From the sequence record MT446422.1: a stretch of 64,000 nt of DNA, one strand, 5' to 3'. Position 1 is the stretch's first letter. The number at the start of each line of letters is the position of its first letter. The position numbers and the translations under genes were made by a program. A model generated the notes under the pieces. The model was not told the origin of the DNA. It made no database searches and worked only from the letters and a program-made list of their open reading frames with translations. Of this stretch, positions 13,010 to 61,500 are shown piece after piece. This DNA comes from Escherichia virus TH57.

Positions 13010-13693
<684 letters not shown>

Positions 13694-13694
<1 letters not shown>

Positions 13695-13733
13695 TGTACA
13701 AATGAGTGTAGGTGCAGTAATATGTTCCTACAC
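13694..13733 (+). promoter_or_regulatory. early promoter with -10 inside an inverted repeat (PeSL-like)
   Basis: -35 GTGTAC, 18 bp spacer, -10 TAATAT inside GTGTAGG...CCTACAC inverted repeat. Confidence 0.5.
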
Positions 13734-13758
13734 TAACGAATGAACAAACGGAGTTAAA

Positions 13759-14091
13759 ATGAACATCAAGACTTACAACGAGTTTTTAGCCGAATCCGCC
13801 ATCAATGAGACCAAATCAATTGATGATAGTGAAGGCTCTCTGAAATTTGGTTTAACCAAAAATGCAGATGGTGTTTTCTTTCAGATTGGTAATGAACGTT
13901 TTCAAACGTCCAAATATTCCAAAGCTGCAGTTGAAGCTGTCCTGAAATCTGGTGGCAAGTGGAAAGGCAAAGAAGGTACTAAAGAAATTGGTATCGCTGT
14001 TGACGGCGGTATGGCTTATTTTAAAATTGGCGATGAACAATTTATTATGTCTGCTCGCGGACGTAAAGAACTGGCAAAACTTTATAAATAA
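13759..14091 (+). CDS. internal protein (IP) with capsid targeting sequence
   Basis: N-terminus MNIKTYNEFLAES resembles the T4 IP capsid targeting sequence MKTYQEFIAE with an x-E prohead-protease site; PeSL-type promoter upstream. Confidence 0.6.
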   Translation: MNIKTYNEFLAESAINETKSIDDSEGSLKFGLTKNADGVFFQIGNERFQTSKYSKAAVEAVLKSGGKWKGKEGTKEIGIAVDGGMAYFKIGDEQFIMSARGRKELAKLYK

Positions 14092-14099
14092 GGTTTCTT

Positions 14100-14372
14100 A
14101 TGAAAACTTTCAATGAATTTTTCAACGAGTCCCAACTGAATGAAGAAGTAAAAATTAGTAAAGCAGTCAAAGCTATGATTGACAATATCAATCACCTGTA
14201 TAGCATTGACTTGACTGACCATATAACAATTGGTAACAAACGCAACTTTTTCGCGTTTGACATTTCAGAACTTGACCAGAACCAAATTAATAACATTGAG
14301 CGTTTTGCCAATGACAAGGGTCTCCGCCATGAGACAGCTGGTTATAAAAAATATGCAATTTATCTAAAATAG
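14100..14372 (+). CDS. internal protein (IP) with capsid targeting sequence
   Basis: N-terminus MKTFNEFFNES; TATAAATA late-promoter motif upstream at about 14083. Confidence 0.6.
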   Translation: MKTFNEFFNESQLNEEVKISKAVKAMIDNINHLYSIDLTDHITIGNKRNFFAFDISELDQNQINNIERFANDKGLRHETAGYKKYAIYLK

Positions 14373-14380
14373 GATTTCAA

Positions 14381-14680
14381 ATGCAAACTTTTCATGAATT
14401 TTTGGTAGAAAATAATTACCTGGCAGAAGCAAAAACCTGGCCTCTGGGCCTTCAGAAGAAAAACACCTACAAATGGGTTGACTTCAAAGACAAAGGCGAC
14501 GCTGAAGACTTTGACCAGCTGCGTAAAAATGGTTATACTTTCCTTGACTCAAACTATAACAAAATTACCTCATTTAGTCAGAAATCCAGCATCGCATATA
14601 TTGAAACTGGTAAAAACACCCCTAAGAACATCACTGACGACTTCGCAGCTTATGGCGTGATTCGCGGTTCAAAAATGTAA
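14381..14680 (+). CDS. internal protein (IP) with capsid targeting sequence
   Basis: N-terminus MQTFHEFLVEN. Confidence 0.55.
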   Translation: MQTFHEFLVENNYLAEAKTWPLGLQKKNTYKWVDFKDKGDAEDFDQLRKNGYTFLDSNYNKITSFSQKSSIAYIETGKNTPKNITDDFAAYGVIRGSKM

Positions 14681-14716
14681 TGTACATGATGGGATAGTTG
14701 CAGTATAATTATCTCA
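14680..14716 (+). promoter_or_regulatory. early promoter cassette (PeSL-like, type A)
   Basis: -35 GTACAT, -10 TATAAT flanked by GGGATAG / TATCTC; conserved downstream CATCAACTACTGGAG leader. Confidence 0.55.
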
Positions 14717-14735
14717 TCAACTACTGGAGCTACTA

Positions 14736-15014
14736 ATGAAAACTTATCAAGAATTTATTAACGAATCAATTAGTCACCCGGATATGCTGGAAGACCTGAA
14801 AGGACATCTGATGGTTAAGGCCAAACCGGTTGATGGTGGCGCATTTGAGTTGTTTCTTGTTAAAGGCGAAAACGGTCCTGATAACAAGAAAGTTTCAGCA
14901 ATGATGTTGACTAAAGGTTACAAAGTCAGTTCTTCCTGGAATGCTCCATTCACTTACGCGGTAAGCCCTCGTGAACTGAAAAAAGTTAAAGCTGGACAAT
15001 ATACAAAAATTTAG
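14736..15014 (+). CDS. internal protein (IP) with capsid targeting sequence
   Basis: N-terminus MKTYQEFINES; early promoter cassette upstream. Confidence 0.65.
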   Translation: MKTYQEFINESISHPDMLEDLKGHLMVKAKPVDGGAFELFLVKGENGPDNKKVSAMMLTKGYKVSSSWNAPFTYAVSPRELKKVKAGQYTKI

Positions 15015-15050
15015 TGTACGTGATGAGATAGTTGTAGTATAATTATCCCA
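15012..15050 (+). promoter_or_regulatory. early promoter cassette (PeSL-like, type A)
   Basis: -35 GTGTAC, -10 TATAAT flanked by GAGATAG / TATCCC. Confidence 0.55.
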
Positions 15051-15068
15051 TCAACTACTGGAGACAAC

Positions 15069-15302
15069 ATGAAAACTTATCAAGAATTTATTAATGAAAC
15101 TGCTGATGTTAAAGTGCAATTCATTTACACCGGCAAGAAAGATAAAATGGGCGAAATGCCTTATGGAACTCTCCGCGACGCCTTAGATAATTACGGTCAG
15201 CTCGGCGGTGAAGAGTTTGGGGACTATTTTGTTATCCAGGGTCCAGCAGAAGTTATCGAGAAATGGGCTAAACAGTATAAATCAATTTTCCGTAAAAAAT
15301 AA
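15069..15302 (+). CDS. internal protein (IP) with capsid targeting sequence
   Basis: N-terminus MKTYQEFINET; early promoter cassette upstream. Confidence 0.65.
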   Translation: MKTYQEFINETADVKVQFIYTGKKDKMGEMPYGTLRDALDNYGQLGGEEFGDYFVIQGPAEVIEKWAKQYKSIFRKK

Positions 15303-15340
15303 GTGTACTTTTAGATATGGGATAGTGTATAATTATCCCA
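15301..15340 (+). promoter_or_regulatory. early promoter cassette (PeSL-like, type A)
   Basis: -35 GTGTAC, -10 TATAAT flanked by GGGATAG / TATCCC. Confidence 0.55.
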
Positions 15341-15361
15341 TCAACTACTGAGGAGAATAAA

Positions 15362-15547
15362 ATGAAACGTTGCGAATTAATTAGAAATGTTACTGCCCTT
15401 GTTGCTGTTTCCGCTTTCGGTTTTAGCATGTTTGCTGGCTTTATGTTGAATATGCTTTCAACTTCTGAGAATACAATCTCTTTAGTAGTTGCATTTTTAA
15501 TTGGTTCAATCTCTTTCGTTATGGATAAAATCTCCAAAGGTGAGTAA
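15362..15547 (+). CDS. small hydrophobic membrane protein
   Basis: 61 aa with hydrophobic segments; promoter cassette and GAGGAG RBS upstream. Confidence 0.5.
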   Translation: MKRCELIRNVTALVAVSAFGFSMFAGFMLNMLSTSENTISLVVAFLIGSISFVMDKISKGE

Positions 15548-16485: not shown

Positions 16486-16560
16486 GGCCCTTTAGCTCAA
16501 TGGGAGAGCTGTCAGCTCATAACTGATAGGTAGCTGGATCGAAACCAGCAAGGGCCACCA
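16486..16560 (+). tRNA. tRNA with CAT anticodon (Met, or Ile if lysidine-modified), CCA encoded
   Basis: Manual cloverleaf: acceptor GGCCCTT/AAGGGCC, D-stem GCTC/GAGC, anticodon loop CTCATAA, T-arm GCTGG-ATCGAAA-CCAGC, 3' ACCA. Confidence 0.8.
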
Positions 16561-16564
16561 AACG

Positions 16565-16641
16565 CGGGGTGTAGCTCAATTGTATAGAGCAACGGTCTTC
16601 TAAACCGTAGGTTGTGGGTTAGAATCCCACCACCCCGACCA
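16565..16641 (+). tRNA. tRNA-Arg (anticodon TCT), CCA encoded
   Basis: Manual cloverleaf: acceptor CGGGGTG/CACCCCG, D-stem GCTC/GAGC, anticodon stem ACGGT/ACCGT with loop CTTCTAA, T-arm GTGGG-TTAGAAT-CCCAC, 3' ACCA. Confidence 0.85.
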
Positions 16642-26068: not shown

Positions 26069-26560
26069 ATGAATATATTCGAAATGTTACGCATAGATGA
26101 AGGTTGTAAGTTGGATTTGTACCGTGACACCGAAGGCTTTTGGACCATCGGCATCGGTCAATTGATAACTAAGAACCCATCGAAAGACGTTGCTCGCGCT
26201 GAGCTGGACAAATTAATGGGTCGTGTTTGCAACGGTAGGATTACCCAGATTGAAGCTGAAACCTTGTTTAACCGTTCAGTGGAAAAAGCTAAAGCCGGAA
26301 TCTTGAAACATCCTGTCTTAAAACCTGTTTATGATGTACTGGATGAAGTTCGTCGTTGCGCACTCATTAATATGGTATTCCAAATGGGTGTAGCTGGTGT
26401 AGCTGGTTTTCCTAAGGGGCTGCGATTGCTCAAGGCTAAATCATGGGAAGCTGCTGCTAAGGAACTGGCTGACTCAAGATGGTATAAAGTCCAGACTCCG
26501 AACCGGGCCAAACGAGTTATTGAAACTTTCCGTACTGGAACTTTTGACGCATACAAATGA
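26069..26560 (+). CDS. e: endolysin (T4 lysozyme, gene e)
   Basis: [12 protein letters not shown]...DTEG..TIGIG...PNRAKRVI matches T4 lysozyme closely, with catalytic Glu11/Asp20/Thr26 positions conserved. Confidence 0.95.
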
Positions 26561-26616: not shown

Positions 26617-27033
26617 ATGACTCGCATTAATTTAACCCTGGTATCTGAACTCGCTGACCAACATCTTATGGCTGAATATCGTGAACTTCCTCGCGTGTTT
26701 GGTGCTGTTCGTAAGCATGTGCAAAATGGTAAAAAGGTGTCTGACTTTAAAATCCCATCATCTTTTCTTTTAGGGACTGGCCATGTCACCTTCTTTTATG
26801 ATAAGCTTTTGTTCCTTAAAAACAGGCATCAAGAACTTATTGCGGAATGTTTAAAGCGAGGGTTTAACATAAAAGATATTTCTACCCAAGATTTAAATGA
26901 TATTCCTGATGAATGGAAGAATGATTATCAACCATCAATCTGGTCAATTGAAATCAGTCAAGCCAGACTGAATGAGAAAATTTCTCAAAAGCCTACCTGG
27001 TACAAATACTATGGGAAAGCTGTGTACGCTTAA
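26617..27033 (+). CDS. denV: endonuclease V (pyrimidine dimer DNA glycosylase, DenV)
   Basis: [35 protein letters not shown]... matches T4 endo V over its full length; 138 aa. Confidence 0.95.
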
Positions 27034-27081: not shown

Positions 27082-27396
27082 ATGAAAACTTATCAAGAAT
27101 TTATTACTGAATCTACCCAAAAACGTGTTGAAGGCGGTTATGTCTGGATTGAACAATTAACCCCACCAAGTGAAACGAGCACGGGTTCGTGGAAAATTAC
27201 TGTTGATGGCCCTGGTGGAAAACGTAAGACTATTAAAGAAATTAAAGGCTATTATGATGAAGCCAAATCATGGGCTGGTAGTCATGTAATGCAGATTAAA
27301 ATTGCAAACCCGGATAACGTTCATGCGGCAAAAGCATTCCGTCGCATTGGTAATAAACTTTATGATGCGTTTTTGCGTGATTTCCCTAAAGAGTAA
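27082..27396 (+). CDS. internal protein (IP) with capsid targeting sequence
   Basis: ORF track 27043; ATG at 27082 gives MKTYQEFITES; position next to denV as ipII/ipIII in T4. Confidence 0.6.
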   Translation: MKTYQEFITESTQKRVEGGYVWIEQLTPPSETSTGSWKITVDGPGGKRKTIKEIKGYYDEAKSWAGSHVMQIKIANPDNVHAAKAFRRIGNKLYDAFLRDFPKE

Positions 27397-27409
27397 TTAA
27401 AGAGACATT

Positions 27410-27673
27410 ATGAAAACTTATCAAGAATTTATTACTGAATCTGCTAAAGCTCCTACCGGTGCTTTTAAAGTCCGCGCCTTCGCTGGTGATGCTGAAGACT
27501 TTGGCACCATGAAGCGCAATGGTTATTCTTTCTTTGGTGGCGATGGTAAAGAAATTGTTACCTATGCAAAACGCCGCGAAATCGCATTCGTGGTTGCTGG
27601 TAAGAAAGTTGATGTTGACGATATTGAATGGGATTTTGATACCTTTGGTATTGTTTCTGGCGGTAAAGCATAA
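27410..27673 (+). CDS. internal protein (IP) with capsid targeting sequence
   Basis: N-terminus MKTYQEFITESAKA. Confidence 0.65.
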   Translation: MKTYQEFITESAKAPTGAFKVRAFAGDAEDFGTMKRNGYSFFGGDGKEIVTYAKRREIAFVVAGKKVDVDDIEWDFDTFGIVSGGKA

Positions 27674-27675
27674 CT

Positions 27676-27710
27676 GTTTACTTTATGATGGGATAGTGTA
27701 TAATTATCCC
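27676..27710 (+). promoter_or_regulatory. early promoter cassette (PeSL-like, type A)
   Basis: -35 GTTTAC, 17 bp spacer, -10 TATAAT flanked by GGGATAG / TATCCC. Confidence 0.6.
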
Positions 27711-27729
27711 ATCAACTTGGAGCGAATAA

Positions 27730-28029
27730 ATGAAAACTTATCAAGAATTTATTACTGAAGCCAAAGCTCCTAAAGCATTTCAAATTGGGGTTCAGGGTAA
27801 TTTAGACCAACAATACGTTGATGCTATTGTAGCAAGCCTCGGCAAGCAGGGTGTACAAGTGGATTTGGTTGATTTTACTAAAGGTAATACTTTTAATATT
27901 GTCACATCTAAAGGTTCTTTAGCTAAAGTTAAAAAGGCCTTTGGCGTAGCACAAGCATATGAAATCGACCATTCCGAATTGGAAAATAAAGGTCGCCAGA
28001 ACACAATTAAAGGCTCTGGTTCTTTCTAA
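27730..28029 (+). CDS. internal protein (IP) with capsid targeting sequence
   Basis: N-terminus MKTYQEFITEAKA; promoter cassette upstream. Confidence 0.65.
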   Translation: MKTYQEFITEAKAPKAFQIGVQGNLDQQYVDAIVASLGKQGVQVDLVDFTKGNTFNIVTSKGSLAKVKKAFGVAQAYEIDHSELENKGRQNTIKGSGSF

Positions 28030-49919: not shown

Positions 49920-50477
49920 ATGAACGAAATTAAATTAACCAAGAATAACTATGTAAATAATAAAGAGCTTTTGAAAGCTATTTCGGAGTGGAAACAGAAG
50001 CTGAATGCGAACACCGACCCGAACAAAATTATTCGCCAGAACGATGTTATTGGTCTGGCGATTATGCTTATAGCCGAAGGTCTTAGCAAACGTTTCAACT
50101 TCTCCGGATATACCCAATCCTGGAAGCAAGAAATGATAGCAGACGGAATTGAGGCCGCAATAAAAGGTCTTCATAACTTCGACGAAACAAAATACGATAA
50201 TCCACATGCTTACATAACAATGGCTTGCTTCAATGCTTTCGTTCAGCGTATCAAAAAAGAACGTAAAGAAATGGCAAAGAAATATAGCTACTTCGTCCAT
50301 AACGTATATGATTCACGTGACGACGATATGGTGGCTCTGGCTGATGAAACATTTATCCAGGACATCTACGACAAAATGACACAGTACGAATCCTCTTTAG
50401 TTAAAGCGCCAGGGTCTGATAAGAGCGCCAAAGATAAAGAAGGTGATTTGGATTTTTTATATGGAACATCAATTTGA
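49920..50477 (+). CDS. 55: late sigma factor gp55
   Basis: 185 aa; NYVNNKELL...[46 protein letters not shown]... matches T4 gp55. Confidence 0.95.
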
Positions 50478-50694
50478 TATTACCGATTTTTTAGATAAAA
50501 TCGAGGAAGACTTTACTGCGCTCCCATATTTCATTAAACTTTATCTGCGAGACATAAAAGGTCTTCCAATTGATATCGACCCTTTAAACGTCCGGAATCT
50601 GGAATTTACTTCACCGGATAATAACGTTGATTACCGTTATCATGTGGATAATGCTAATCTATATTTTACAATTGAGTTAACTCCCAAGGATTAA
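50461..50694 (+). CDS. hypothetical protein
   Basis: ORF track 50443; ATG at 50461. Confidence 0.45.
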
Positions 50695-50695
50695 T

Positions 50696-51007
50696 ATGCA
50701 AGCTCCAGATATTTCTCAACTGACCGATAAGCAGATTGAAGAAGCACAGGAACGTCTCGAAGAAGCGAACGCACTCGAAGCGCAGAGTCAAGCAGCAAAG
50801 ATTCTGAAAAAGAATGCTCGTGAAATTGCACGACTGAATAAGCATGCTCAAGGGGCAGTGCTGGAAAACAATTTTGAAGCATACAAATATGCTTTAGTTA
50901 AACTGCGTGGAATTTACCGCCAACCAGTTACGGAAGACCTGATTAAGTTGATGTGGGAAACTACTCGCAAACAAATTTGGGAAATCGTAAATGGCATTAG
51001 TAAATAA
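50696..51007 (+). CDS. hypothetical protein
   Basis: 103 aa ORF. Confidence 0.45.
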   Translation: MQAPDISQLTDKQIEEAQERLEEANALEAQSQAAKILKKNAREIARLNKHAQGAVLENNFEAYKYALVKLRGIYRQPVTEDLIKLMWETTRKQIWEIVNGISK

Positions 51008-51194
51008 ACCTTTTAAACGGCTTCTTGTTGGAGCCGCTTTCAGACTTCGCTCATACGGTAATATCTGTATCAAGCAGACCGAAACCGAATATAAAATGGT
51101 TGGTCAGTATTCTGATGGTATTTTTCAGATTGAGCCTGTGGCCAAGGTTTGGGTGGATTCACACCAACTTAAGAAATGGTGGCAACGATGGTAG
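50991..51194 (+). CDS. hypothetical protein
   Basis: 67 aa ORF. Confidence 0.4.
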   Translation: MALVNKPFKRLLVGAAFRLRSYGNICIKQTETEYKMVGQYSDGIFQIEPVAKVWVDSHQLKKWWQRW

Positions 51195-51284
51195 GATTTT
51201 ATGAAAGCGGATGTAACGAAGACGAACATCCGGATTTTTAAGCTTATGAACGACGAATAAGAAAAAGTTTAAGAGGTTTTATGA

Positions 51285-51458
51285 ATGACGAATTCGACGG
51301 ATTTTGATAAGATTAAATCTGGCAAAAATGAGATGATACTTCAATTTGAAGCCGCTCGTATTAAAGCAGAAAATGAAGGCACTATTACCCATAAGAAAAT
51401 CAAGTTCAAGTCTAATCGCGAACCTCTGTATGGTGTATTAATTGGAAAGGAAGCCTAG
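51285..51458 (+). CDS. small hypothetical protein (57 aa)
   Basis: ATG 8 nt after AAGAGG; stop lies in the loop of a terminator hairpin. Confidence 0.35.
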   Translation: MTNSTDFDKIKSGKNEMILQFEAARIKAENEGTITHKKIKFKSNREPLYGVLIGKEA

Positions 51459-51470
51459 TGCTTCCTTTTT
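51448..51470 (+). terminator. rho-independent terminator
   Basis: AGGAAGC-CTAGT-GCTTCCT hairpin followed by TTTTT. Confidence 0.55.
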
Positions 51471-51514
51471 GCTTTATATTCGGGATGATAAAATGAACCA
51501 ACTGAGGAGAACAT

Positions 51515-51658
51515 ATGGAATTATTTTTAGGATATGTTGTGTTATTCATGGCATTCTACACATTCACACGAGCTTGTTGGATAGGATTCTTTTCTACTCC
51601 TGACGGGTTCATTTCAATAATTTTATTTTGCACTGCGATAACGGCGCTTGGCTTATGA
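51515..51658 (+). CDS. small hydrophobic protein (47 aa) overlapping gp47 start
   Basis: ATG after GAGGAG; hydrophobic; stop overlaps gp47 ATG. Confidence 0.35.
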   Translation: MELFLGYVVLFMAFYTFTRACWIGFFSTPDGFISIILFCTAITALGL

Positions 51659-52674
51659 AAATTTTAAATTTAGGTGATTGGCACTTGGGTGTCAAAGCTG
51701 ACGACCCATGGGCTCAAAACATTCAACGTGATGGTATTTTACAGGCGATTGCATATTCCAAAGCGAATGGAATTAAAGTTTGGATTCAATATGGTGATAT
51801 TTTTGACGTCCGTAAGGCCGTAACGCATAAGACAATGGAATTCAGCCGCGAGATTATGGAACTCCTTCGTGAAGCAGGAATTACTATGCACACGATAGTC
51901 GGGAACCATGACATGAATCTGAAGAATAAGATTCATCCTAATGCTATCACCGAACTCCTGAATAAGTATGACCATGTTAAAATCTACGACAAGCCAACGA
52001 CTGTTGATTTTGACGGTTGTCAGATTGATATGATTCCATGGATGTGTGACGAGAACGCGACTGACATTCATCAACACATCAAAACTTCTGGTGCCGAATA
52101 TTGCATCGGTCACTGGGAATTAACCGGGTTTTATTTCTATAAAGGATTGAAATCCCACGGGCTTGAGCCTGATTTCCTTAAGAAGTACAAGCAAGTTTGG
52201 TCTGGGCACTTCCATACCATTTCAGAAGCTGCGAACGTTAAGTACATAGGAACGCCATGGACATTAACAGCAGGTGATGAGAATGACCCGCGCGGATTCT
52301 GGGAATTTGATACAGAAACCGAAGAGATGAAATTTATTCCGAATGAAACCACCTGGCATCGGAAGATTTTTTATCCAAACGAAACTATTAACTACGACGA
52401 CTTCAAAGACTTATCAGTCCGTGTTATTGTAGAAAAAGTCGATAAAGACCTGACCAAGTTCGAATCTGAATTAGAAAAGCGTGTACATGAATTGCGTGTT
52501 GTCAATAAGGTTGATAACAGTGTTGATACGACTGACTCCGAAGAAGAGTTAGACATAAAACGCTTAACTGATATGATGGCAGAATATATTGATGCATTAC
52601 CTGACACCAATGAGAAAGAATCAAAAGCTCTTAAAGCATTGGCCAACAAATTATATCTTGAGGTGCAACCGTGA
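51655..52674 (+). CDS. 47: recombination nuclease subunit gp47 (Mre11-like)
   Basis: ORF track 51628; ATG at 51655 gives MKILNLGDWHLGVKADD..., matching the T4 gp47 N-terminus; GNHDM phosphoesterase motif. Confidence 0.9.
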   Translation: MKILNLGDWHLGVKADDPWAQNIQRDGILQAIAYSKANGIKVWIQYGDIFDVRKAVTHKTMEFSREIMELLREAGITMHTIVGNHDMNLKNKIHPNAITELLNKYDHVKIYDKPTTVDFDGCQIDMIPWMCDENATDIHQHIKTSGAEYCIGHWELTGFYFYKGLKSHGLEPDFLKKYKQVWSGHFHTISEAANVKYIGTPWTLTAGDENDPRGFWEFDTETEEMKFIPNETTWHRKIFYPNETINYDDFKDLSVRVIVEKVDKDLTKFESELEKRVHELRVVNKVDNSVDTTDSEEELDIKRLTDMMAEYIDALPDTNEKESKALKALANKLYLEVQP

Positions 52675-52934
52675 GACTTTATGATTTTAATGAAGCGGGG
52701 CTTGAACATATCCGCGAATGTGATGTGGTTGACGACGATAATCAACCGAATACTATTAAGTATTGGTTTGAAGCTATCACTGACCGGGAAACCGGTCAAC
52801 TTATCAAAGTCTATGTAGTCACCGATTGGGCCGTAGAATTTAGTTTTAATGTAATGGAAGATGATACTCCAGAAACATTAATTCATATGGCTGAATCATG
52901 CATCAAGGATGCTTATAATGATGAAAATGTATAA
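52671..52934 (+). CDS. hypothetical protein (T4 46.2 position)
   Basis: 87 aa ORF between 47 and 46. Confidence 0.45.
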   Translation: MRLYDFNEAGLEHIRECDVVDDDNQPNTIKYWFEAITDRETGQLIKVYVVTDWAVEFSFNVMEDDTPETLIHMAESCIKDAYNDENV

Positions 52935-53133
52935 ACATGATTTTCATATTGGCGATGGCTGGTTCGGTAATGTAGAATGGGACGTGGATGGTTCTTGGTA
53001 TACCGGAACTATGTATGTCACTTCTGAATATTCTGAAGGTGTTTCATGGGTCATGGAACTTGACGACGTGTTTGCTTCTTCCGAAGAAATGCTAGAATAT
53101 GCTGAACAAACAATTCGTGAGAACAATACATGA
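52909..53133 (+). CDS. hypothetical protein (T4 46.1 position)
   Basis: 74 aa ORF between 47 and 46; start uncertain. Confidence 0.4.
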   Translation: MLIMMKMYKHDFHIGDGWFGNVEWDVDGSWYTGTMYVTSEYSEGVSWVMELDDVFASSEEMLEYAEQTIRENNT

Positions 53134-54812
53134 AAACGTTTAAGCTTAAGAAAGTTATCTATAAAAATATTATGTCGGTTGGTGCTCAACCGATTACTGT
53201 TGAACTGGATAAAGTCCAGAAAACTCTTGTAACTGGCAAGAATGGCGCAGGGAAATCTACGTTCCTTGAAGCGGTTACCTTTGCTATGTTCGGTAAGCCT
53301 TTCCGTGATGTAAAGAAAGGTCAGCTGATTAACTCGAGCAACAAAAAAGATATGCTCGTTGAATTGTGGATGGAATATGATGGAAAAGAATACTATATCA
53401 AACGCGGGCAAAAACCCAATGTTTTTGAAATCTCTTGTGGCGGTAAACGTCTTGATGAATCTGCCAGCAGTAAAGACTTCCAAGCGGAATTTGAACAGCT
53501 TATCGGAATGTCATACGCAAGCTTCAAACAAATTGTCGTACTCGGCACAGCTGGATATACCCCTTTTATGGGCCTATCCACTCCTGCCAGAAGAAAGCTT
53601 GTCGAAGACCTTTTAGAGGTTTCTGTACTGGCCGATATGGATAAGCTGAACAAATCTCTTATCCGCGAAGTCAATAGCCAAATCCAGGTGATGGATGTAC
53701 AGCATGACGGTATCGTTCAACAGATTAAAATCTATCAGGACAACGAAGACCGTCAAAGAAAATTGTCAGGCGATAATCTGTTGCGACTGCAAACGATGTA
53801 TGATGAACTTGCCACAGAAGCACGTGGAATCAAGGCAACTATCGAAGAAGCAACGACAAGACTGACCGAGATAATCTTGGGAGAAGACCCTGAGCACGAA
53901 CTCACAAAGTTAAAGCAGGAATCATTCCTGATTAAATCGAAGATTGACGATTATCGAAAGGTTGTTGGTCTGTACGAGAAAGGTGGTTGTTGTCAGACCT
54001 GTGCCAGTCAGTTGCATCCAGGAGACCCTATTGTCGCCAGGATTGAGTCAAAGATTGAAGAATGTAATGCATCGGCTGATAAGCATAAAGCTCGCCAGAA
54101 TGCTGTTCAGGAGCAATTTGATGCGTATACCAAGGCAAGACAAAACCAGCGTACAATAGCTCAAGACATTCAAACTAAGAAACAAACCTTAGTCCAGACT
54201 GTCGAAAAAGCTAAAAAGGTTAAAGCATTAATCGAGCAAGCCAAGTCAGAATTCATTGACCATGCAGCAGACATTAAAATGCTTCAAGACCAGCTTGATA
54301 AAATAGTCAAACAGAAATCTGACCTTGTGATGGAAAAATATCAACGTGGTATCCTAACGGATATGTTGAAAGATTCTGGTATCAAGGGCGCGATTATTAA
54401 GAAATATATTCCTATCTTTAATAAGCAGATAAACGCTTATCTTAAAGTTATGGAAGCTGATTATAGCTTTACGTTAGATGAAGAGTTCAACGAAACGATT
54501 AAATCTCGTGGACGTGAAGACTTTAGCTATGCATCATTTAGCCAGGGTGAAAAAGCTCGTATAGATATTGCATTGCTGTTTACATGGCGCGATATTGCTG
54601 CGAAAGTATCTGGTGTTAATATTAACACATTGATTCTGGATGAAGTTTTTGACTCGGCCACTGATGTAGAGGGTGTTAAAGCAATTGCTACCATCCTGAA
54701 CAAATTGGAAGACACCAACATTTTTATTATCAGTCACCGAGACCATGACCCGGAAGCATACGGGCAACATCTCCAGATGAAAAAAGTTGGTCGATTCACC
54801 GTTATGGAATAA
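53130..54812 (+). CDS. 46: recombination ATPase gp46 (Rad50-like)
   Basis: 560 aa; Walker A GKNGAGKST; long central coiled coil; synteny with 47. Confidence 0.9.
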   Translation: MKTFKLKKVIYKNIMSVGAQPITVELDKVQKTLVTGKNGAGKSTFLEAVTFAMFGKPFRDVKKGQLINSSNKKDMLVELWMEYDGKEYYIKRGQKPNVFEISCGGKRLDESASSKDFQAEFEQLIGMSYASFKQIVVLGTAGYTPFMGLSTPARRKLVEDLLEVSVLADMDKLNKSLIREVNSQIQVMDVQHDGIVQQIKIYQDNEDRQRKLSGDNLLRLQTMYDELATEARGIKATIEEATTRLTEIILGEDPEHELTKLKQESFLIKSKIDDYRKVVGLYEKGGCCQTCASQLHPGDPIVARIESKIEECNASADKHKARQNAVQEQFDAYTKARQNQRTIAQDIQTKKQTLVQTVEKAKKVKALIEQAKSEFIDHAADIKMLQDQLDKIVKQKSDLVMEKYQRGILTDMLKDSGIKGAIIKKYIPIFNKQINAYLKVMEADYSFTLDEEFNETIKSRGREDFSYASFSQGEKARIDIALLFTWRDIAAKVSGVNINTLILDEVFDSATDVEGVKAIATILNKLEDTNIFIISHRDHDPEAYGQHLQMKKVGRFTVME

Positions 54813-54846
54813 TGCTTTAAACAAGGATGTTATAATAGAGGCTATT

Positions 54847-55038
54847 ATGGCTGACTTCTTAACCGGGCAGCATTTACTGGCTGTCCCTGAAATTAAACGG
54901 TATGTGTTAGTTAATACCTTTTCGAAAGATGAACACCTTGTCACTGAACGTGACTTGCAAAACGCTTTCGGTGAAGAATATGTTAAAATAATCGCGAACA
55001 GACACAATGCCTGGTTCGCATATGAATACTTTGATTAA
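54847..55038 (+). CDS. hypothetical protein (T4 45.2 position)
   Basis: ORF track 54787; ATG at 54847 after TATAAT promoter and AGAGG. Confidence 0.45.
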   Translation: MADFLTGQHLLAVPEIKRYVLVNTFSKDEHLVTERDLQNAFGEEYVKIIANRHNAWFAYEYFD

Positions 55039-55062
55039 TTGATAATGAATAGAGAGAATATT

Positions 55063-55470
55063 ATGAACAACGTAACTGCTAAAGATATCCAAGTTAAAAC
55101 CATCCGCACTGACGCTAACCCGCATAACCAAAACCGTGTGCGCAAATCCTGGGTTCTGGCCTGTGATGAAGCATCTGCTACCCGTCTGCAGTCTCTGCCG
55201 CAAGAAATTAAATTCATGCTGTACGGTGTGATTGATACTGATGTATCTGATAAGTGGATTGAACTGATGCGTAATCACTACAACGATTCACTGGCTGCTG
55301 GTGCTAAACTGGTTATCGACCGTGATGGTTCCGAACGTCTTGAAGATGATTATTGTGTTAACTCGGACGACCATCTGGTGCAAGCCGGTTCTATTATTGC
55401 TGCGCAACTTCCAGAGTATATTGAATCTCTTCCGGAAGCTATCCGCAAACAAATGGCAGTTGTTGCTTAA
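55063..55470 (+). CDS. rpbA: RNA polymerase binding protein RpbA
   Basis: ORF track 55039 uses TTG; ATG at 55063; position directly upstream of gene 45 as in T4. Confidence 0.6.
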   Translation: MNNVTAKDIQVKTIRTDANPHNQNRVRKSWVLACDEASATRLQSLPQEIKFMLYGVIDTDVSDKWIELMRNHYNDSLAAGAKLVIDRDGSERLEDDYCVNSDDHLVQAGSIIAAQLPEYIESLPEAIRKQMAVVA

Positions 55471-55500
55471 TTAATTTTGATTTGAATAAAAGGTAATTAA

Positions 55501-56196
55501 ATGAAATTCTCTAAAGACACTATCGCAGTTCTGAAAAACTTCACCTCCATCTACTCTGGCATTATGCTTAAGCCAGGTAATACCATCCTGACCCGTTCTG
55601 TAACTGGAGCGTCATATGGCGAAGCCGAAATCAATGATACAATTGACTTTGAAGCTGCGATTTATGACCTGAACGGCTTCTTAAGTATCCTGGGCCTGGT
55701 AACTGACCAAGCTGAAGTATCTCTGGCTGAAGATGCATCGAATATCATTATCAAAGACCAACGTTCAACGATTCACTGGCCTGCAGCAGACCCGAGCACT
55801 ATCGTGTTCCCTGCTAAGAAGATTCCTTTCCCGGTAGCTAAGGTTATCTTCGACCTGAAAGGCAGTGACCTGCAGCAGCTTCTGCGTGTGGCTGGTGGTT
55901 TGTCTCTGGATACTTTTGCAATCACCAACAAAGACGGTAAGATTGTTATCCATGGTTATAACCAGCTCGAAGATAAAGAATTAGCGCGTCCATTGTATTC
56001 CCTGGTGTGTGGTGATTACGAAGGTGATGCAGCGTTTAAATTTATCATTAACAAACTGAACATGAAAATGATTCCGGCTGATTACCGTGTTATGCTTTGG
56101 GCAAAAGATGATAAATTTGCTACGAAGTTTGAAGGTACACAAGCAAGCTATGTGATTGCAATGGAACAAGGCTCTAGCCACGAATTCCAAGATTAA
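55501..56196 (+). CDS. 45: sliding clamp gp45
   Basis: 231 aa; MKFSKDTIAVLKNFTSIYSGIMLK...HWPAADPST...LQQLLRV... matches T4 gp45. Confidence 0.95.
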   Translation: MKFSKDTIAVLKNFTSIYSGIMLKPGNTILTRSVTGASYGEAEINDTIDFEAAIYDLNGFLSILGLVTDQAEVSLAEDASNIIIKDQRSTIHWPAADPSTIVFPAKKIPFPVAKVIFDLKGSDLQQLLRVAGGLSLDTFAITNKDGKIVIHGYNQLEDKELARPLYSLVCGDYEGDAAFKFIINKLNMKMIPADYRVMLWAKDDKFATKFEGTQASYVIAMEQGSSHEFQD

Positions 56197-56254
56197 TAAA
56201 TGGGGCTTCGGCCCCATGGAGTACAAAGTAGAAACTAATATGAGGAAAATAATA

Positions 56255-57232
56255 ATGGCAACAGTAATTAACGGTCTAACAGTCAACGAATCCGACTTCA
56301 TGTGGGAACAAAAATACCGCCCAGGCACATTATCAGAGTGTATTCTGCCGGCTCATGATAAAGAAACGTTAGAGGCGATTGTTAAAAAAGGTTTGATTCC
56401 TAACTTGATTCTGGTCAGTAGTTCCCCTGGCACCGGTAAGACAACAGTTGCGAAAGCTATGTGTGCGGATACGAATTCTGATATGTTGTTTGTTAACGGC
56501 TCCGATTGTCGAATTGACTTTGTGCGTAATGAATTGACTCGCTTTGCATCATCCAAATCAATCGAAGGGCGCCGTAAGGTAATCGTTATCGATGAGTTTG
56601 ACCGTGCAGGTCTGGCAGAATCCCAGCGACATCTTCGTAGTTTCATGGAAGCTTATTCGAGCAACTGTTCAATCATTATGACCGCGAACAACATCGATGG
56701 TATCATCACTCCATTGCAGTCCCGTTGCCGTGTGATTAAATTCGGTGAGTCAACCGATGAAGACCGTACCTCCATGCTTAAACAGATGATTCATCGTTCA
56801 GTGGCTATCTGTAAGAACGAAGGTGTTGAAATCGAAGACCTGAAAGTTGTTGCTGCCCTGGTTAAGCATAACTTCCCGGACTTGCGTAAGACAATTAACG
56901 AGCTTGACCGTTACTCTGCGAAGGGTGTTATCGATTCTGGTATCTTAAGTATCGTGACAAATAATCGCACTCCAATCGATGATGTGATTGATGCCCTTAA
57001 GGACCGTAACTTTAAAGTTCTCCGTGGCCTGGCACCGAAATTTGCAAATGATTATTCAAACTTCATTGCCAAGCTCGCTGATGAAATGTACGGCAAACTG
57101 ACTGGTGCAAGCATCATCCGTATGTATGAGATTGTGGGTGAGAACAATCAGTATCACGGGCTGGCAGCGAACACCGAAGTTCACTTGACTTATCTGTTTG
57201 CTCAACTGGCTGGGGAAATGAAATGGCTGTAA
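56255..57232 (+). CDS. 44: clamp loader large subunit gp44
   Basis: ORF track 56156; ATG at 56255 after GAGGAAAATAATA; EQKYRP...SPGTGKTTVAKA...VIVIDEFDR matches T4 gp44. Confidence 0.9.
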   Translation: MATVINGLTVNESDFMWEQKYRPGTLSECILPAHDKETLEAIVKKGLIPNLILVSSSPGTGKTTVAKAMCADTNSDMLFVNGSDCRIDFVRNELTRFASSKSIEGRRKVIVIDEFDRAGLAESQRHLRSFMEAYSSNCSIIMTANNIDGIITPLQSRCRVIKFGESTDEDRTSMLKQMIHRSVAICKNEGVEIEDLKVVAALVKHNFPDLRKTINELDRYSAKGVIDSGILSIVTNNRTPIDDVIDALKDRNFKVLRGLAPKFANDYSNFIAKLADEMYGKLTGASIIRMYEIVGENNQYHGLAANTEVHLTYLFAQLAGEMKWL

Positions 57233-57801
57233 GTCTCTTTGATGATGACGTTCAATTAAACGAACATGAGGTTGCGTGGAAATCACGTGACTTTAACAAA
57301 ATTCAGGAATTGTCCGATTCATACAAAGAGAAAGCAGAAAATGAATTGTTCGCGATTCTTAATGACATAACCGTTAGCAAAAAACCACGGAACCTGATTC
57401 AATCGGAAAACTACAATAAATTCTGGTTGGAAAACGCATTGAGCCAACATGTCGATTGCATTATGCAGGTGAACGTGATGAACTTAATCGGTTCCGGGTT
57501 AACAGACCAACAGCATTATAATTATTTGCTGCATGCGGTTCCACAAGGCAAACGTTATGGTAAATGGGCAAAGGCTGAGCCGGATGCGGTCAACGTCCAG
57601 CTTGTGTTAAAGCTTTTAATGAAATATTATACAATTAATGCAGATGATGCTTTGATGTATATGGAAACATTGAAAGTCAAAGGTAGTCTTAAAGATGTTT
57701 TGAAAAAGACAAAAGGTCTGGTAACGGATGAATTCTTAAAGACCGTTACCAGTAATGTGAAAGAACAAAAAGAAATTAAAAAACAAATATTGGAATGGTA
57801 A
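57223..57801 (+). CDS. 62: clamp loader small subunit gp62
   Basis: 192 aa between 44 and regA as in T4. Confidence 0.85.
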   Translation: MAVSLFDDDVQLNEHEVAWKSRDFNKIQELSDSYKEKAENELFAILNDITVSKKPRNLIQSENYNKFWLENALSQHVDCIMQVNVMNLIGSGLTDQQHYNYLLHAVPQGKRYGKWAKAEPDAVNVQLVLKLLMKYYTINADDALMYMETLKVKGSLKDVLKKTKGLVTDEFLKTVTSNVKEQKEIKKQILEW

Positions 57802-57802
57802 A

Positions 57803-58171
57803 ATGATTGAAATTACATTAAAGCAACCTGAAGACTTCCTGAAAGTTAAAGAAACTCTGACCCGTATGGGCATCGCAAATAATAAAGACCGTGTGCTGTA
57901 CCAGAGCTGCCACATCCTCCAGAAGCAAGGTCGTTACTATATTGTTCACTTCAAAGAAATGCTGCGTATGGATGGTCGCCAGGTAGATATTGATGGTGAA
58001 GACTATCAGCGCCGTGATTCCATTGCTCAACTGCTCGAAGACTGGGGCTTAATCACTATCAAAGAAGAAGAGCATAATGAATTGTTCGCAGTAACAAACA
58101 ACTTCCGTGTTATCTCCTTTAAACAAAAAGACGACTGGAAGCTCGTAGCCAAATATACAATTGGTAATTGA
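57803..58171 (+). CDS. regA: translational repressor RegA
   Basis: 122 aa; MIEITLKQPEDFLKVKETLTRMGIANNKD...NNFRVISFKQK matches T4 RegA. Confidence 0.95.
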   Translation: MIEITLKQPEDFLKVKETLTRMGIANNKDRVLYQSCHILQKQGRYYIVHFKEMLRMDGRQVDIDGEDYQRRDSIAQLLEDWGLITIKEEEHNELFAVTNNFRVISFKQKDDWKLVAKYTIGN

Positions 58172-58172
58172 T

Positions 58173-58388
58173 ATGAAGCATGAAATTGAAACATGCGAAC
58201 GCCTTAAAGAAATATATGGACTTTCCCCAACTCAAACTATTTTTGACCTTTCCGAAGAACTTCAAATAGAATTTCAAAAGGAACTCAAGAAATTATTGCA
58301 TCCTGGGCAGAGAGTCTTCCAGGCTATGGTTAGAACTAAAGATGAAAAGGGGAATCCGACCATCGAACGTCGTACAATAGAAATTTAA
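58173..58388 (+). CDS. hypothetical protein between regA and 43
   Basis: ORF track 58161; ATG at 58173. Confidence 0.45.
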   Translation: MKHEIETCERLKEIYGLSPTQTIFDLSEELQIEFQKELKKLLHPGQRVFQAMVRTKDEKGNPTIERRTIEI

Positions 58389-58391
58389 AGC

Positions 58392-58412
58392 AAAGGGACT
58401 TCGGTCCCTTTT
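58392..58412 (+). terminator. hairpin (terminator or gene 43 regulatory structure)
   Basis: AAAGGGAC-TTCG-GTCCCTTT perfect hairpin followed by T-rich sequence and a TATAAT box. Confidence 0.55.
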
Positions 58413-58473
58413 GTAGTATAATAGCGTCAAGTCATAAAACAAAAGTCAATCACTCGACTATAAAGGAAACCAA

Positions 58474-61188: not shown

Positions 61189-61190
61189 GT

Positions 61191-61221
61191 GTTTACAACG
61201 GCAAAGGACTGCCGTATGATT
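61191..61221 (+). promoter_or_regulatory. early promoter upstream of the Imm-like gene
   Basis: -35 GTTTAC, 18 bp spacer, -10 TATGAT, followed by type-A-like leader CCATCAACTGATGA. Confidence 0.45.
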
Positions 61222-61257
61222 ACTCCATCAACTGATGAATAACTTAAGGATATTAAA

Positions 61258-61500
61258 ATGGAAACATTAATTGCGGGTACTGTTGTTCTGGGTGCTGGCT
61301 CTTTCTTCCTGGCTGCACTGGCATATTTTCTGCCGTGGATTATCGCACTACTGCGAGGAACCAAAAGTAATTGCGGAATCTTCTTTGTTAACCTCCTGTT
61401 AGGTTGGACAATGGTCGGATGGTTTATTGCATTTATCTGGGCACTCGTTGCTGAGCGTAAATCAAACGCACAAGTAATTATCATCAAGGAAACCAAATGA
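61258..61500 (+). CDS. small two-helix membrane protein (Imm-like position)
   Basis: 80 aa with two hydrophobic helices, directly after gene 43 where T4 carries imm. Confidence 0.5.
   Translation: METLIAGTVVLGAGSFFLAALAYFLPWIIALLRGTKSNCGIFFVNLLLGWTMVGWFIAFIWALVAERKSNAQVIIIKETK

What the first reader, a model, noticed from the sequence alone, without database searches (positions are those of the whole stretch)
13759..15302. Cluster of five internal-protein genes with capsid targeting sequences next to 57B
Five consecutive small ORFs start with MKTYQEFINE-type N-termini (MNIKTYNEFLAE, MKTFNEFFNE, MQTFHEFLVE, MKTYQEFINES, MKTYQEFINET), matching the T4 internal-protein capsid targeting sequence ending in an x-E prohead-protease site. 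Their bodies are unrelated to each other. In T4, IPI* is injected with the DNA and inhibits a restriction system, so these are candidate injected anti-defense effectors.
Basis: partly seen in the sequence, partly recalled or inferred. Interest (0 to 1): 0.55.

Follow-up and report, generated by a model that had tools for sequence, protein, structure and literature searches.

The report
Variable internal-protein gene cluster, T4-like phage
This is the well-known variable "internal protein" locus of a T4-like coliphage: five small genes share a capsid-packaging leader, so their products are probably injected with the DNA to disarm host defences, though none has a known target.

Summary
Five consecutive + strand ORFs (13759-15302) start with the T4 capsid targeting sequence (CTS). 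They fill the slot between 57B and trna.4 that holds ipI in T4. The motif occurs 8 times in the window, always at an ORF start, against about 0.005 expected. The window is a Gaprivervirus, 97.7% identical to phage VR20. VR7/VR20 records already call three of the five genes internal head proteins (ip9, ip6, gp154-like); the other two are "hypothetical". The architecture matches the polymorphic IP locus described in 1994: unrelated bodies, a conserved leader and repeated early-promoter/palindrome elements.

What this work adds:
- ORF A is a genuine CTS family found in at least five Tevenvirinae genera. Its predicted fold is PUR/Whirly-like.
- ORF D is a genus-restricted ORFan.
- The Ip9 body also occurs without a CTS in Kagunavirus siphophages.
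- Close relatives swap cassettes at this locus.
- The window lacks T4's hmC and glucosylation genes at their syntenic sites, so the GmrSD targets of T4 Ip1-3 cannot simply be assumed.

Packaging, cleavage, injection and anti-defence activity are all inferred, not shown.

The parts
13239..13694 (+). 57B, a homologue of the anti-CBASS nuclease Acb1. It is the conserved left boundary of the IP locus.
   Evidence: Pfam PF23474 Acb1 at E 1.9e-59. Annotated as gp57B in VR20, VR7 and T4.
13694..13758 (+). Upstream element of A: GTGTAC (13694-13699), a TAATAT -10-like hexamer, a palindrome (13705-13734), and a GGAG ribosome-binding site.
   Evidence: Alignment with the other intergenic elements. DNA fold -7 kcal/mol, z -1.75.
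13759..14091 (+). IP gene A (110 aa). The leader is MNI-KTYNEFLAE, with LAE|S and INE|T sites. The body is predicted to have a PUR/Whirly-like fold made of two four-strand-plus-helix repeats. Public records call it 'hypothetical'.
14083..14090 (+). TATAAATA, the T4 late-promoter consensus, at the 3' end of gene A just upstream of B.
   Evidence: It is the only match in the cluster. The whole window has 5 matches against 5.7 expected by chance, so this is weak evidence.
14100..14372 (+). IP gene B, equal to Ip9 (90 aa). The leader MKTFNEFFNE is non-canonical at position 8, and the first L-x-E site is LNE at residues 13-15.
   Evidence: PHROG 7673 'internal head protein' at E 1.7e-56. Annotated ip9 in VR7/VR20. 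RB15 Ip9 at 81% identity. The body is found in 198 phage records, including CTS-less Kagunavirus homologues.
14381..14680 (+). IP gene C (99 aa; VR7 gp154 / RB69 ORF125c-like). The leader is MQTFHEFLVE|N, with a second site LAE|A at residue 16.
   Evidence: PHROG 2667 'internal head protein' at E 4e-20. RefSeq VR20 calls it 'internal head protein'. Paralogous to the ORF at 27410.
14682..14735 (+). Repeated intergenic element: TGTACA, 17 nt, TATAAT (an early-promoter-like site), with a palindrome spanning the -10 hexamer, then GGAG.
   Evidence: Repeat families D3/D4 and I1. Promoter scan 10 of 12. Alignment. Fold. The same kind of element flanks T4 ipI on both sides.
14736..15014 (+). IP gene D (92 aa) with the canonical leader MKTYQEFINE|S. 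The body is an ORFan restricted to Gaprivervirus, and every record calls it 'hypothetical'.
   Evidence: PHROG 15565, unknown function. Found in 17 phage records, all at 97.6% identity or more. A single cluster among 5.8 billion proteins. Full HMMER against 1.84 billion representatives finds only itself plus repeat-protein artefacts.
15016..15068 (+). Second copy of the repeated promoter/palindrome element.
   Evidence: 90% identical to the 14670-14729 copy.
15069..15302 (+). IP gene E, equal to Ip6 (77 aa), with the canonical leader MKTYQEFINE|T.
   Evidence: PHROG 8111 'internal virion protein' at E 2.5e-51. Annotated ip6 (T6 Ip6-like) in VR7/VR20. Found in 230 phage records.
15303..15361 (+). 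Third copy of the element, upstream of trna.4. It is the right boundary of the cassette array.
   Evidence: Its 3' part is nearly identical to the T4 sequence upstream of trna.4.
15362..15547 (+). trna.4 homologue, a small membrane protein. It is the conserved right flank.
   Evidence: PHROG 1692. Annotated Trna.4 in VR7/VR20/T4.
27082..28029 (+). Second IP locus, downstream of e and denV: three more CTS ORFs (27082-27396, 27410-27673, 27730-28029), all starting MKTYQEFITE.
   Evidence: Their CTS-coding DNA is 100% identical to each other and 93-96% identical to D and E.

Best explanation
The region is the ipI-type hyperplastic locus of a Gaprivervirus (T4-like) phage. It carries five independent internal-protein (IP) cassettes.

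Proposed mechanism:
1. Each protein is made with a roughly 10-residue N-terminal capsid targeting sequence. This docks it onto the gp22/gp21 scaffolding core while the prohead assembles.
2. The gp21 prohead protease removes the leader after a Leu/Ile-x-Glu site. Predicted mature N-termini are S13 or T18 for A, E16 for B, N11 or A17 for C, S11 for D and T11 for E.
3. The mature proteins of about 7-11 kDa stay in the DNA-filled head, at tens to hundreds of copies per head in T4.
4. They are ejected into the cell with the DNA, so they act before any phage gene is expressed.
5. Each unrelated body most likely neutralises a different host defence protein, as T4 Ip1, Ip2 and Ip3 each do for a different GmrSD restriction enzyme.
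6. A, which has a PUR/Whirly-like fold, may instead bind nucleic acid.

The array diversifies by recombination between the repeated promoter/palindrome elements plus the conserved CTS-coding DNA that flank the cassettes.

Shown here: the sequence features, synteny, homology, cassette polymorphism and the predicted fold of A. Inferred: packaging, cleavage, injection and any anti-defence activity.
For: - CTS: there are eight CTS motifs in the window, all at ORF starts, against 0.005 expected. The residues reported to matter for targeting (positions 4 and 7) and processing (8 and 10) in IPIII (PMC9026906) are Y/F, F, L/I/F and E in all five ORFs. Every protein has an L/I-x-E site within its first 17 residues.
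- Synteny: the order 57B, cluster, trna.4 is the same as around T4 ipI.
- Homology: B, C and E match PHROGs or annotations for internal head/virion proteins.
- A: its homologues at 47-67% identity in Kanagawavirus, Winklervirus, Moonvirus and Gelderlandvirus keep the CTS. K4, T5, Y6, F9 and E12 are invariant. They lie next to 57B or between e and denV.
- Machinery: the closest complete relative, VR20, encodes gp67, gp68, gp21, gp22 and gp23.
- Cassette exchange within the genus: the window, VR7 and VR20 have A-Ip9-C-D-Ip6. VR26 has A-Ip9-Ip5-Ip6. RZ and MN01 have A-Ip9-Ip5-X-Y. EAWsc9 has A-Ip9-C-Ip5-X. CJ20 has A-Ip9-C-D.
- Recombination substrates: CTS-coding DNA is 63-100% identical between cassettes, against about 25-30% in the bodies. 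The roughly 55-nt intergenic elements are about 90% identical, and the same type of element flanks T4 ipI.
- Literature: PMC3012670, PMC12373910, PMC4122927.
- Context: the neighbouring gene 57B is the anti-CBASS nuclease Acb1.
Against: - I found no virion proteomics or functional data for any of the five proteins.
- B has Phe at position 8. In VR7/VR20, Ip9 has Leu at the targeting position 7 and C has Leu at position 4, so packaging efficiency of B and C is uncertain.
- A carries two extra residues (MNI-) before the motif.
- Only A, C and D are clearly basic. B has pI 6.8 and E has pI 7.8.
- None of the five, nor the three in the second cluster, is homologous to T4 Ip1, Ip2 or Ip3.
- T4 gp42, beta-gt and alpha-gt have no match in the window although their flanking genes are present. 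A published survey finds no known base-modification enzymes in Gaprivervirus (PMC8056088). A GmrSD-type target is therefore not implied.
- The only late-promoter consensus in the cluster is no more than chance would give.
Confidence: 0.82

Rival explanations
1. The proteins are packaged and processed as described, but their main role is physical. They would neutralise DNA charge, help condensation or help ejection, with no specific host target. The sequence diversity would then reflect weak constraint rather than an arms race.
For: T4 IPs are abundant (about 300 copies each), basic and bind DNA at low salt (PMC9026906). Lysines of IPs contact DNA phosphates (PMC3012670). A, C and D have pI 9.1-9.6. 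A has a fold typical of nucleic-acid binders.
Against: All three T4 IPs now have specific restriction-enzyme targets (PMC12373910). B and E are not basic. Each family is well conserved across genera: Ip6 is found in 230 records and Ip9 in 198, and A has many invariant body residues. That argues for specific folds under selection. Presence/absence shuffling between near-identical genomes is typical of accessory counter-defence genes.
Confidence: 0.15
2. Some members, especially B (Ip9) and C, act mainly as ordinary early cytoplasmic proteins made after infection from the early-type promoters. Their degenerate leaders would no longer direct efficient packaging.
For: The cassettes are preceded by sigma-70/T4-early-like promoters rather than late promoters. 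The Ip9 body exists as a stand-alone 72-aa protein without any CTS in a Kagunavirus siphophage. Between close relatives, the CTS positions 4, 7 and 8 of B and C are non-canonical and polymorphic.
Against: T4 ipI, a proven packaged protein, has the same early-promoter/palindrome flanks and also F at position 4 and a non-L/I residue at position 8. Ip9 orthologues in other genera keep a canonical MKTYQEFI[AST]E leader. B and C both keep a canonical L-x-E site within their first 16 residues.
Confidence: 0.12
3. The shared N-termini are a by-product of recent tandem duplication or gene conversion of a non-functional sequence, or the ORFs are not real genes.
For: The D and E leaders and their upstream elements are nearly identical at the DNA level.
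Against: All five ORFs are intact and conserved at 95% identity or more in many independent isolates. The leader is conserved at the protein level across genera whose DNA and protein bodies have diverged to 47-67% identity. The motif count is far above chance.
Confidence: 0.01

Closest known systems
[quoted passage not shown] 1994, EMBO J 13:4181; cited from memory and through PMC12373910 and PMC4122927)
   Same: The genomic slot is the same (57B to trna.4). The N-terminal CTS is the same, and D and E differ from IPII/IPIII at one of ten residues. The L/I-x-E protease site is present. The proteins are small, about 8-11 kDa. The bodies are unrelated to each other. The flanking early-promoter-plus-palindrome elements are present, and a second locus lies near e/denV.
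   Different: No body here is homologous to Ip1, Ip2 or Ip3. There are five cassettes where T4 has one. A has a two-residue N-terminal extension and B has a non-canonical position 8. The host phage apparently lacks the hmC and glucosylation genes.
The annotated IP cluster of Gaprivervirus phages vB_EcoM_VR7 and VR20 (ip9, ip6, gp154, gp153, gp156)
   Same: The region is 97.3-97.7% identical over its whole length, with the same five genes in the same order.
   Different: In those records A (gp156) and D (gp153) are only 'hypothetical protein'. The VR7 start of gp156 is extended upstream through a codon that is a stop in this window. The Ip9 and C leaders differ at one CTS residue each.
PeSL (promoter-early stem-loop) recombination elements of T4-like phages (Arbiol 2010; Comeau 2014, PMC4122927)
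   Same: These are repeated intergenic modules of about 55-70 nt with a T4-early-type promoter (TTTACW, 17 nt, TAYWAT), a stem-loop and a Shine-Dalgarno sequence. They flank the variable ORFs, and the cassette content differs between close relatives.
   Different: Here the palindrome overlaps the -10 hexamer rather than lying upstream of the promoter. The folding energies are modest, with z from -0.5 to -3.7. No element separates A, B and C, which are spaced by 8 nt and are constant in the genus.
PUR / Whirly / MRP1-MRP2 / SsgA-type fold (for protein A only)
   Different: There is no sequence-level match to any Pfam, NCBIfam or PDB family, and identity to the structural hits is 8-14%. The protein is much smaller and carries a CTS. 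Nucleic-acid binding has not been tested.

Membership tests
T4-type CTS-bearing internal proteins | An N-terminal capsid targeting sequence resembling MKTYQEFIAE, with an aromatic residue at positions 4 and 7 for targeting. | tested here: met
   All five have Y/F at position 4 and F at position 7 (A is offset by two residues). T4 reference sequences are, and the residue roles come from PMC9026906. The motif is enriched 8 against 0.005 expected.
T4-type CTS-bearing internal proteins | A gp21 cleavage site L/I-x-E at the end of, or just after, the leader. | tested here: met
   The sites are A LAE12 and INE17, C LVE10 and LAE16, D INE10 and E INE10. B lacks a site at residue 10 (FNE) but has LNE15, comparable to T4 IPI, which is cut at ITE19.
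T4-type CTS-bearing internal proteins | The gene lies in one of the two IP loci (57B-trna.4, or the e/denV region). | tested here: met
   Synteny with T4, VR7 and VR20.
T4-type CTS-bearing internal proteins | The phage encodes the gp21 prohead protease and the gp22/gp67/gp68 scaffolding core. | tested here: inconclusive
   These genes fall outside the 64-kb window. They are present in the closest complete relative, VR20, which is 97.7% identical in the IP region.
T4-type CTS-bearing internal proteins | The protein is present in mature virions in N-terminally processed form and is ejected with the DNA. | not testable with these tools
   This needs virion mass spectrometry and injection assays. 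I found no proteomic data for these proteins in the searchable literature.
T4-type CTS-bearing internal proteins | A small basic protein. | tested here: inconclusive
   The mature sizes are 7.7-10.7 kDa. The pI values are A 9.3, C 9.1 and D 9.6, but B 6.8 and E 7.8.
GmrSD (type IV restriction) inhibitors Ip1/Ip2/Ip3 | Sequence homology to T4 Ip1, Ip2 or Ip3. | tested here: not met
   BLASTP of all bodies against the three T4 proteins gives E of 0.18 or higher. No PDB sequence match, including IPI*.
GmrSD (type IV restriction) inhibitors Ip1/Ip2/Ip3 | The phage DNA carries glucosyl-hmC, the substrate that makes GmrSD a threat. | tested here: not met
   tblastn with T4 gp42, beta-gt and alpha-gt finds nothing in the window, although imm, uvsX, gp47 and gp55, which flank them in T4, are present. 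PMC8056088 reports no known modification enzymes in Gaprivervirus. The rest of the genome was not examined here.
GmrSD (type IV restriction) inhibitors Ip1/Ip2/Ip3 | Inhibition of a GmrSD enzyme in vivo or in vitro. | not testable with these tools
   This needs plaque assays of the kind used in PMC12373910.
PUR/Whirly-like fold proteins (ORF A) | Two four-strand-plus-helix repeats forming one domain. | tested here: met
PUR/Whirly-like fold proteins (ORF A) | A sequence-profile match to the PUR, Whirly or related Pfam families. | tested here: not met
   Pfam gives 0 families at E of 1 or lower. NCBIfam gives none.
PeSL recombination elements | An early sigma-70-like promoter, a stem-loop and a Shine-Dalgarno sequence, repeated around variable ORFs. 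| tested here: met
   Three copies at about 90% identity lie at 14682-14735, 15016-15068 and 15303-15361, with diverged ones upstream of A, F and H. The stem-loop position differs from the published PeSL layout.

The most novel reading that the evidence does not exclude
In a T4-like lineage that seems to lack the hmC-glucose DNA modification, the eight CTS proteins may target defences other than GmrSD. One of them (A) may be an injected nucleic-acid-binding protein with a PUR/Whirly fold, which would be a mode of action not described for any internal protein. In addition, the Ip9 body occurs without a leader in Kagunavirus siphophages and as the C-terminal domain of a large Kuttervirus protein encoded among structural genes. 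It may therefore be a portable counter-defence module that different phage families deliver by different routes.
Probability: 0.2. Interest if true: 0.6.

Novelty: new member of a known kind. Interest (0 to 1): 0.33.

Why it matters
Internal proteins reach the cell together with the phage DNA, before any phage gene is expressed, so they are a first line of counter-defence. Only T4 Ip1, Ip2 and Ip3 have known targets. This locus offers five further candidates that already carry a delivery signal, plus three more elsewhere in the window, and none has a known target. Two of them have not been recognised as internal proteins in public annotation. They sit in a phage lineage whose DNA chemistry probably differs from T4, so testing them could reveal inhibitors of defences other than GmrSD. 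The biology itself is textbook for T-even phages, and a specialist would not be surprised by the cluster.

Tried and rejected
- Structure prediction of D from a single sequence gave pLDDT 47.6, so it was unusable and no fold search was run on it.
- Full HMMER search with the D body: the three non-self hits are long repetitive Ig/MBG-type proteins. Each matches only a 24-residue stretch many times over. I rejected them as summed-repeat artefacts.
- Weak Pfam hits for B (AHD, FNIP_C) and C (CspB prodomain, KorB_C) are far below the curated cut-offs. Rejected.
- PHROG 3966 groups A with the ORF at 27082, which suggested a paralogue. Profile comparison aligns only the 11 CTS residues, so the grouping is driven by the leader.
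- In phage EAWsc9 the gene A homologue is labelled 'profilin' and the C homologue 'homing endonuclease'. No sequence or fold result here supports either label.
- Depletion of internal [LI]xE sites in the bodies, which would indicate exposure to gp21: 1 observed against 2.4 expected (P 0.27), and 2 against 3.6 for all eight. Not significant.
- Late promoter: the single TATAAATA at 14083 is no more than chance.
- PDB sequence searches for all five proteins and NCBIfam for all eight returned nothing.
- BFVD fold search with A returned only its own homologue and uncharacterised phage proteins.
- The VR7 genome paper and Repoila 1994 are not held in the library. One literature search on Ip5/Ip6/Ip9 returned only unrelated papers.
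Full report
**Observation**

The five ORFs are real, consecutive and on the + strand at exactly the stated coordinates:

| ORF | Coordinates | Length | N-terminus |
|---|---|---|---|
| A | 13759-14091 | 110 aa | MNIKTYNEFLAE |
| B | 14100-14372 | 90 aa | MKTFNEFFNE |
| C | 14381-14680 | 99 aa | MQTFHEFLVE |
| D | 14736-15014 | 92 aa | MKTYQEFINE |
| E | 15069-15302 | 77 aa | MKTYQEFINE |

I translated the T4 genes from NC_000866. IPII and IPIII start MKTYQEFIAE, and IPI starts MKTFKEFTSTTTPVSTITE|A.

A six-frame scan of the 64-kb window for [KQR]T[YFW]x[ED][FWY] gives eight hits. All eight sit immediately after an initiator Met of a + strand ORF: the five above plus three at 27082, 27410 and 27730. 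Shuffled sequence gives 0.73 hits for this core and 0.005 for the full Met-anchored pattern ending in Glu. Chance is excluded.

All-against-all BLASTP of the bodies shows no similarity among the five (E > 0.8). C, however, is clearly paralogous to the ORF at 27410 (E 1.5e-13).

**What the window is**

The region is 97.7% identical to Escherichia phage vB_EcoM_VR20 and 97.3% identical to VR7 (genus Gaprivervirus, Tevenvirinae).

The gene order is gp2, gp3, gp1 (dNMP kinase), 57A, 57B, the five ORFs, trna.4, trna.3, then tRNA-Met and tRNA-Arg. This is collinear with T4, where the single gene ipI lies between 57B and trna.4. 57B is the anti-CBASS nuclease Acb1 (Pfam E 1.9e-59).

The second classical IP locus is also in the window. 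After e (26069-26560) and denV (26617-27033) come three further ORFs starting MKTYQEFITE.

**What is already annotated**

- In VR7 and VR20, B is ip9 (named after RB32/RB15 Ip9; UniProt Q38376 is 81% identical to the B body).
- E is ip6 (named after T6 Ip6).
- RefSeq calls C 'internal head protein'.
- A (gp156) and D (gp153) are 'hypothetical'.

PHROGs agree: 7673, 2667 and 8111 are internal head/virion proteins, while 3966 (A) and 15565 (D) have unknown function. Pfam, NCBIfam and PDB sequence searches find nothing for any of the five.

**Is A an internal protein?**

Yes, as far as sequence can show.

- tblastn finds the A body in 55 phage records.
- Homologues at 47-67% identity occur in Edwardsiella phage PEi20, Serratia phage CHI14, Citrobacter phage Merlin and Salmonella phage STP4-a. 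They start MKTYDEFLTE, MKTYKEFLAE, MKTYKEFLTE and MKTYDEFITE.
- These homologues lie either directly after 57B or between the endolysin and denV, which are the two IP loci.
- In a 12-sequence alignment, the leader residues K4, T5, Y6, F9 and E12 are invariant.
- The Gaprivervirus copies have two extra residues (MNI- or MNL-) ahead of the motif.
- The longer VR7 annotation (MFLHQRTNGVK-MNIK...) runs through a codon that is a stop in this window, so it is probably an over-extension.

An AlphaFold2 model built on the alignment has mean pLDDT 76.7, with 82-89 across the body. It shows two four-strand-plus-helix repeats.

- Foldseek independently ranks human PURA and MRP1/2 first.
- The two halves are homologous (hhalign probability 95%, E 2.6e-8).

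Most proteins with this fold bind single-stranded nucleic acids. For A this is only a lead, because the structure is predicted.

**D, B and E**

D is an ORFan. It occurs in 17 phage records, all Gaprivervirus at 97.6% identity or more. It forms a single cluster among 5.8 billion proteins. An exhaustive HMMER search of 1.84 billion representatives returns only itself plus artefactual hits to repeat proteins. Its leader is canonical. Its single-sequence model was unusable.

B (Ip9) occurs in 198 phage records. Orthologues in other T4-like genera carry the canonical MKTYQEFI[AST]E leader. Two homologues lie outside the T4-like phages:
- A 72-aa homologue at 50% identity in a Kagunavirus siphophage has no leader at all.
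- A weaker match (32% identity, E 8e-5) is the C-terminal ~76 residues of a 755-aa Kuttervirus protein encoded beside structural genes.

This fits the idea that the CTS is a portable address label placed on effector modules that other phages deliver differently.

E (Ip6) occurs in 230 records, mostly Tequatrovirus. It has a 35%-identical allele (X, 84 aa) in some Gaprivervirus genomes.

**Leader and cleavage details**

According to PMC9026906:
- gp21 cuts after Glu in L/I-x-E.
- The first ten residues of IPIII suffice for packaging.
- Positions 4 and 7 matter for targeting, and positions 8 and 10 for processing.

D and E fit perfectly. A and C fit and have a second site 5-6 residues further on. 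B has FNE at positions 8-10, and its first canonical site is LNE15, which resembles T4 IPI, cut at ITE19.

In VR7/VR20, Ip9 has Leu at position 7 and C has Leu at position 4. The leaders of B and C are therefore the least certain.

The processing machinery (gp67, gp68, gp21, gp22, gp23) is not in the window but is present in VR20.

**Locus dynamics**

Elements of about 55 nt precede D, E and trna.4. Each has TGTACW, 17 nt, TATAAT, a palindrome across the -10 hexamer, and GGAG. They are about 90% identical to each other. More diverged versions precede A, F and H. T4 ipI is flanked on both sides by the same kind of element.

The CTS-coding DNA of D, E, F, G and H is 93-100% identical. That of A, B and C is 63-74% identical. 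Body DNA is at background, about 25-30%.

The cassette content differs among close relatives:

| Phage(s) | Cassette order |
|---|---|
| window, VR7, VR20 | A-Ip9-C-D-Ip6 |
| CJ20 | A-Ip9-C-D |
| VR26 | A-Ip9-Ip5-Ip6 |
| EAWsc9 | A-Ip9-C-Ip5-X |
| RZ, MN01 | A-Ip9-Ip5-X-Y |

The tightly packed A-Ip9 pair has 8-nt spacers with no repeat element and is constant. The variable cassettes are the ones bounded by repeat elements and canonical leaders.

This is what Repoila et al. (1994) described for T-even IP loci (recalled from memory, and cited in PMC12373910 and PMC4122927). It is also what Comeau et al. attribute to PeSL-mediated shuffling.

**Mechanism and its limits**

The best-supported reading is the classical one: CTS-directed incorporation into the prohead core, gp21 processing, retention in the head, co-injection with DNA, and action on host defences. 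In T4 all three IPs are specific inhibitors of different GmrSD type IV enzymes (PMC12373910).

Nothing beyond sequence supports packaging or function for these five. Several points argue against simply transferring the GmrSD target:
- No body here is related to Ip1, Ip2 or Ip3.
- T4 gp42, beta-gt and alpha-gt have no match in the window, although their neighbours imm, uvsX, gp47 and gp55 are all present.
- A published survey finds no known base-modification enzymes in Gaprivervirus (PMC8056088).

The targets are therefore open.

**Verdict**

The locus type has been known for three decades, and three of the five genes already carry IP names in nearly identical genomes.

The modest additions are:
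- recognition of A and D as IPs;
- a predicted PUR/Whirly-like fold for A;
- CTS-less relatives of Ip9 outside the T4-like phages;
- the point that this lineage's DNA chemistry makes non-GmrSD targets likely.

The cluster is a good candidate list for anti-defence screening but not a surprising discovery.

Noticed in passing
window 27082-28029: A second cluster of three CTS-bearing ORFs (27082-27396, 27410-27673, 27730-28029; all MKTYQEFITE) lies downstream of e lysozyme and denV. This is the ipII/ipIII-type locus. The phage therefore encodes at least eight IPs, and none is homologous to T4 Ip1-3. The ORF at 27410 is a paralogue of C.
   Followed up: partly
window 49920-63418 (gp55, gp47, gp46, gp45, gp44, gp62, gp43, imm, uvsX): T4 gp42 (dCMP hydroxymethylase), beta-gt and alpha-gt have no tblastn match in the window, although the genes that flank them in T4 are all present. 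This is consistent with a report that Gaprivervirus lacks known base-modification enzymes. The DNA modification of this lineage is unknown.
   Followed up: partly
window 61624-62154: A 176-aa ORF of unknown function (PHROG 1754, no Pfam hit) lies between imm and uvsX, where T4 has gene 42 and beta-gt. It might relate to an alternative DNA modification.
   Followed up: no
window 13239-13694: 57B, often annotated 'RNA ligase' or 'hypothetical', is a clear Acb1 anti-CBASS homologue (Pfam E 1.9e-59). The IP array therefore abuts a known counter-defence gene.
   Followed up: yes
L008 2507-2725 (Kagunavirus vB_EcoS-K1_SXAU_B4); L009 2001-2228 (Kuttervirus aagejoakim gene 85): The Ip9 body occurs as a leaderless 72-aa ORF in a 44-kb siphophage at 50% identity. 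It also matches, weakly (32% identity, E 8e-5), the C-terminal domain of a 755-aa protein next to structural genes in an Ackermannviridae phage.
   Followed up: partly
P0030 (ip7 of Escherichia phage OLB35): The C-terminal 35 residues of Ip7 are about 80% identical to Ip9. By eye, its N-terminal part resembles the ORF at window 27730. This suggests mosaic IP bodies.
   Followed up: no
PHROG 3966 / PHROG 2667: PHROG 3966 contains both A and the unrelated ORF at 27082. Profile comparison shows that only the 11-residue CTS aligns. PHROG families of internal proteins can therefore be held together by the leader alone.
   Followed up: yes
L002 3485-3850 (VR7 gp156); L013 2035-2956 (EAWsc9): There are annotation problems in relatives. 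The VR7 gp156 start is probably over-extended by 11 codons. EAWsc9 labels the A homologue 'profilin' and the C homologue 'homing endonuclease', with no support from the searches here.
   Followed up: partly
window 16486-16641: tRNA-Met (CAT) and tRNA-Arg (TCT) lie downstream of trna.3 and two unknown ORFs. This is a much smaller tRNA cluster than the eight tRNAs of T4 at the same position.
   Followed up: no
L010 (phage CJ20) 3311-3508: In CJ20 the array ends after D and runs straight into trna.3. Both Ip6 and trna.4 are missing, which indicates a deletion extending past the usual right boundary of the locus.
   Followed up: no
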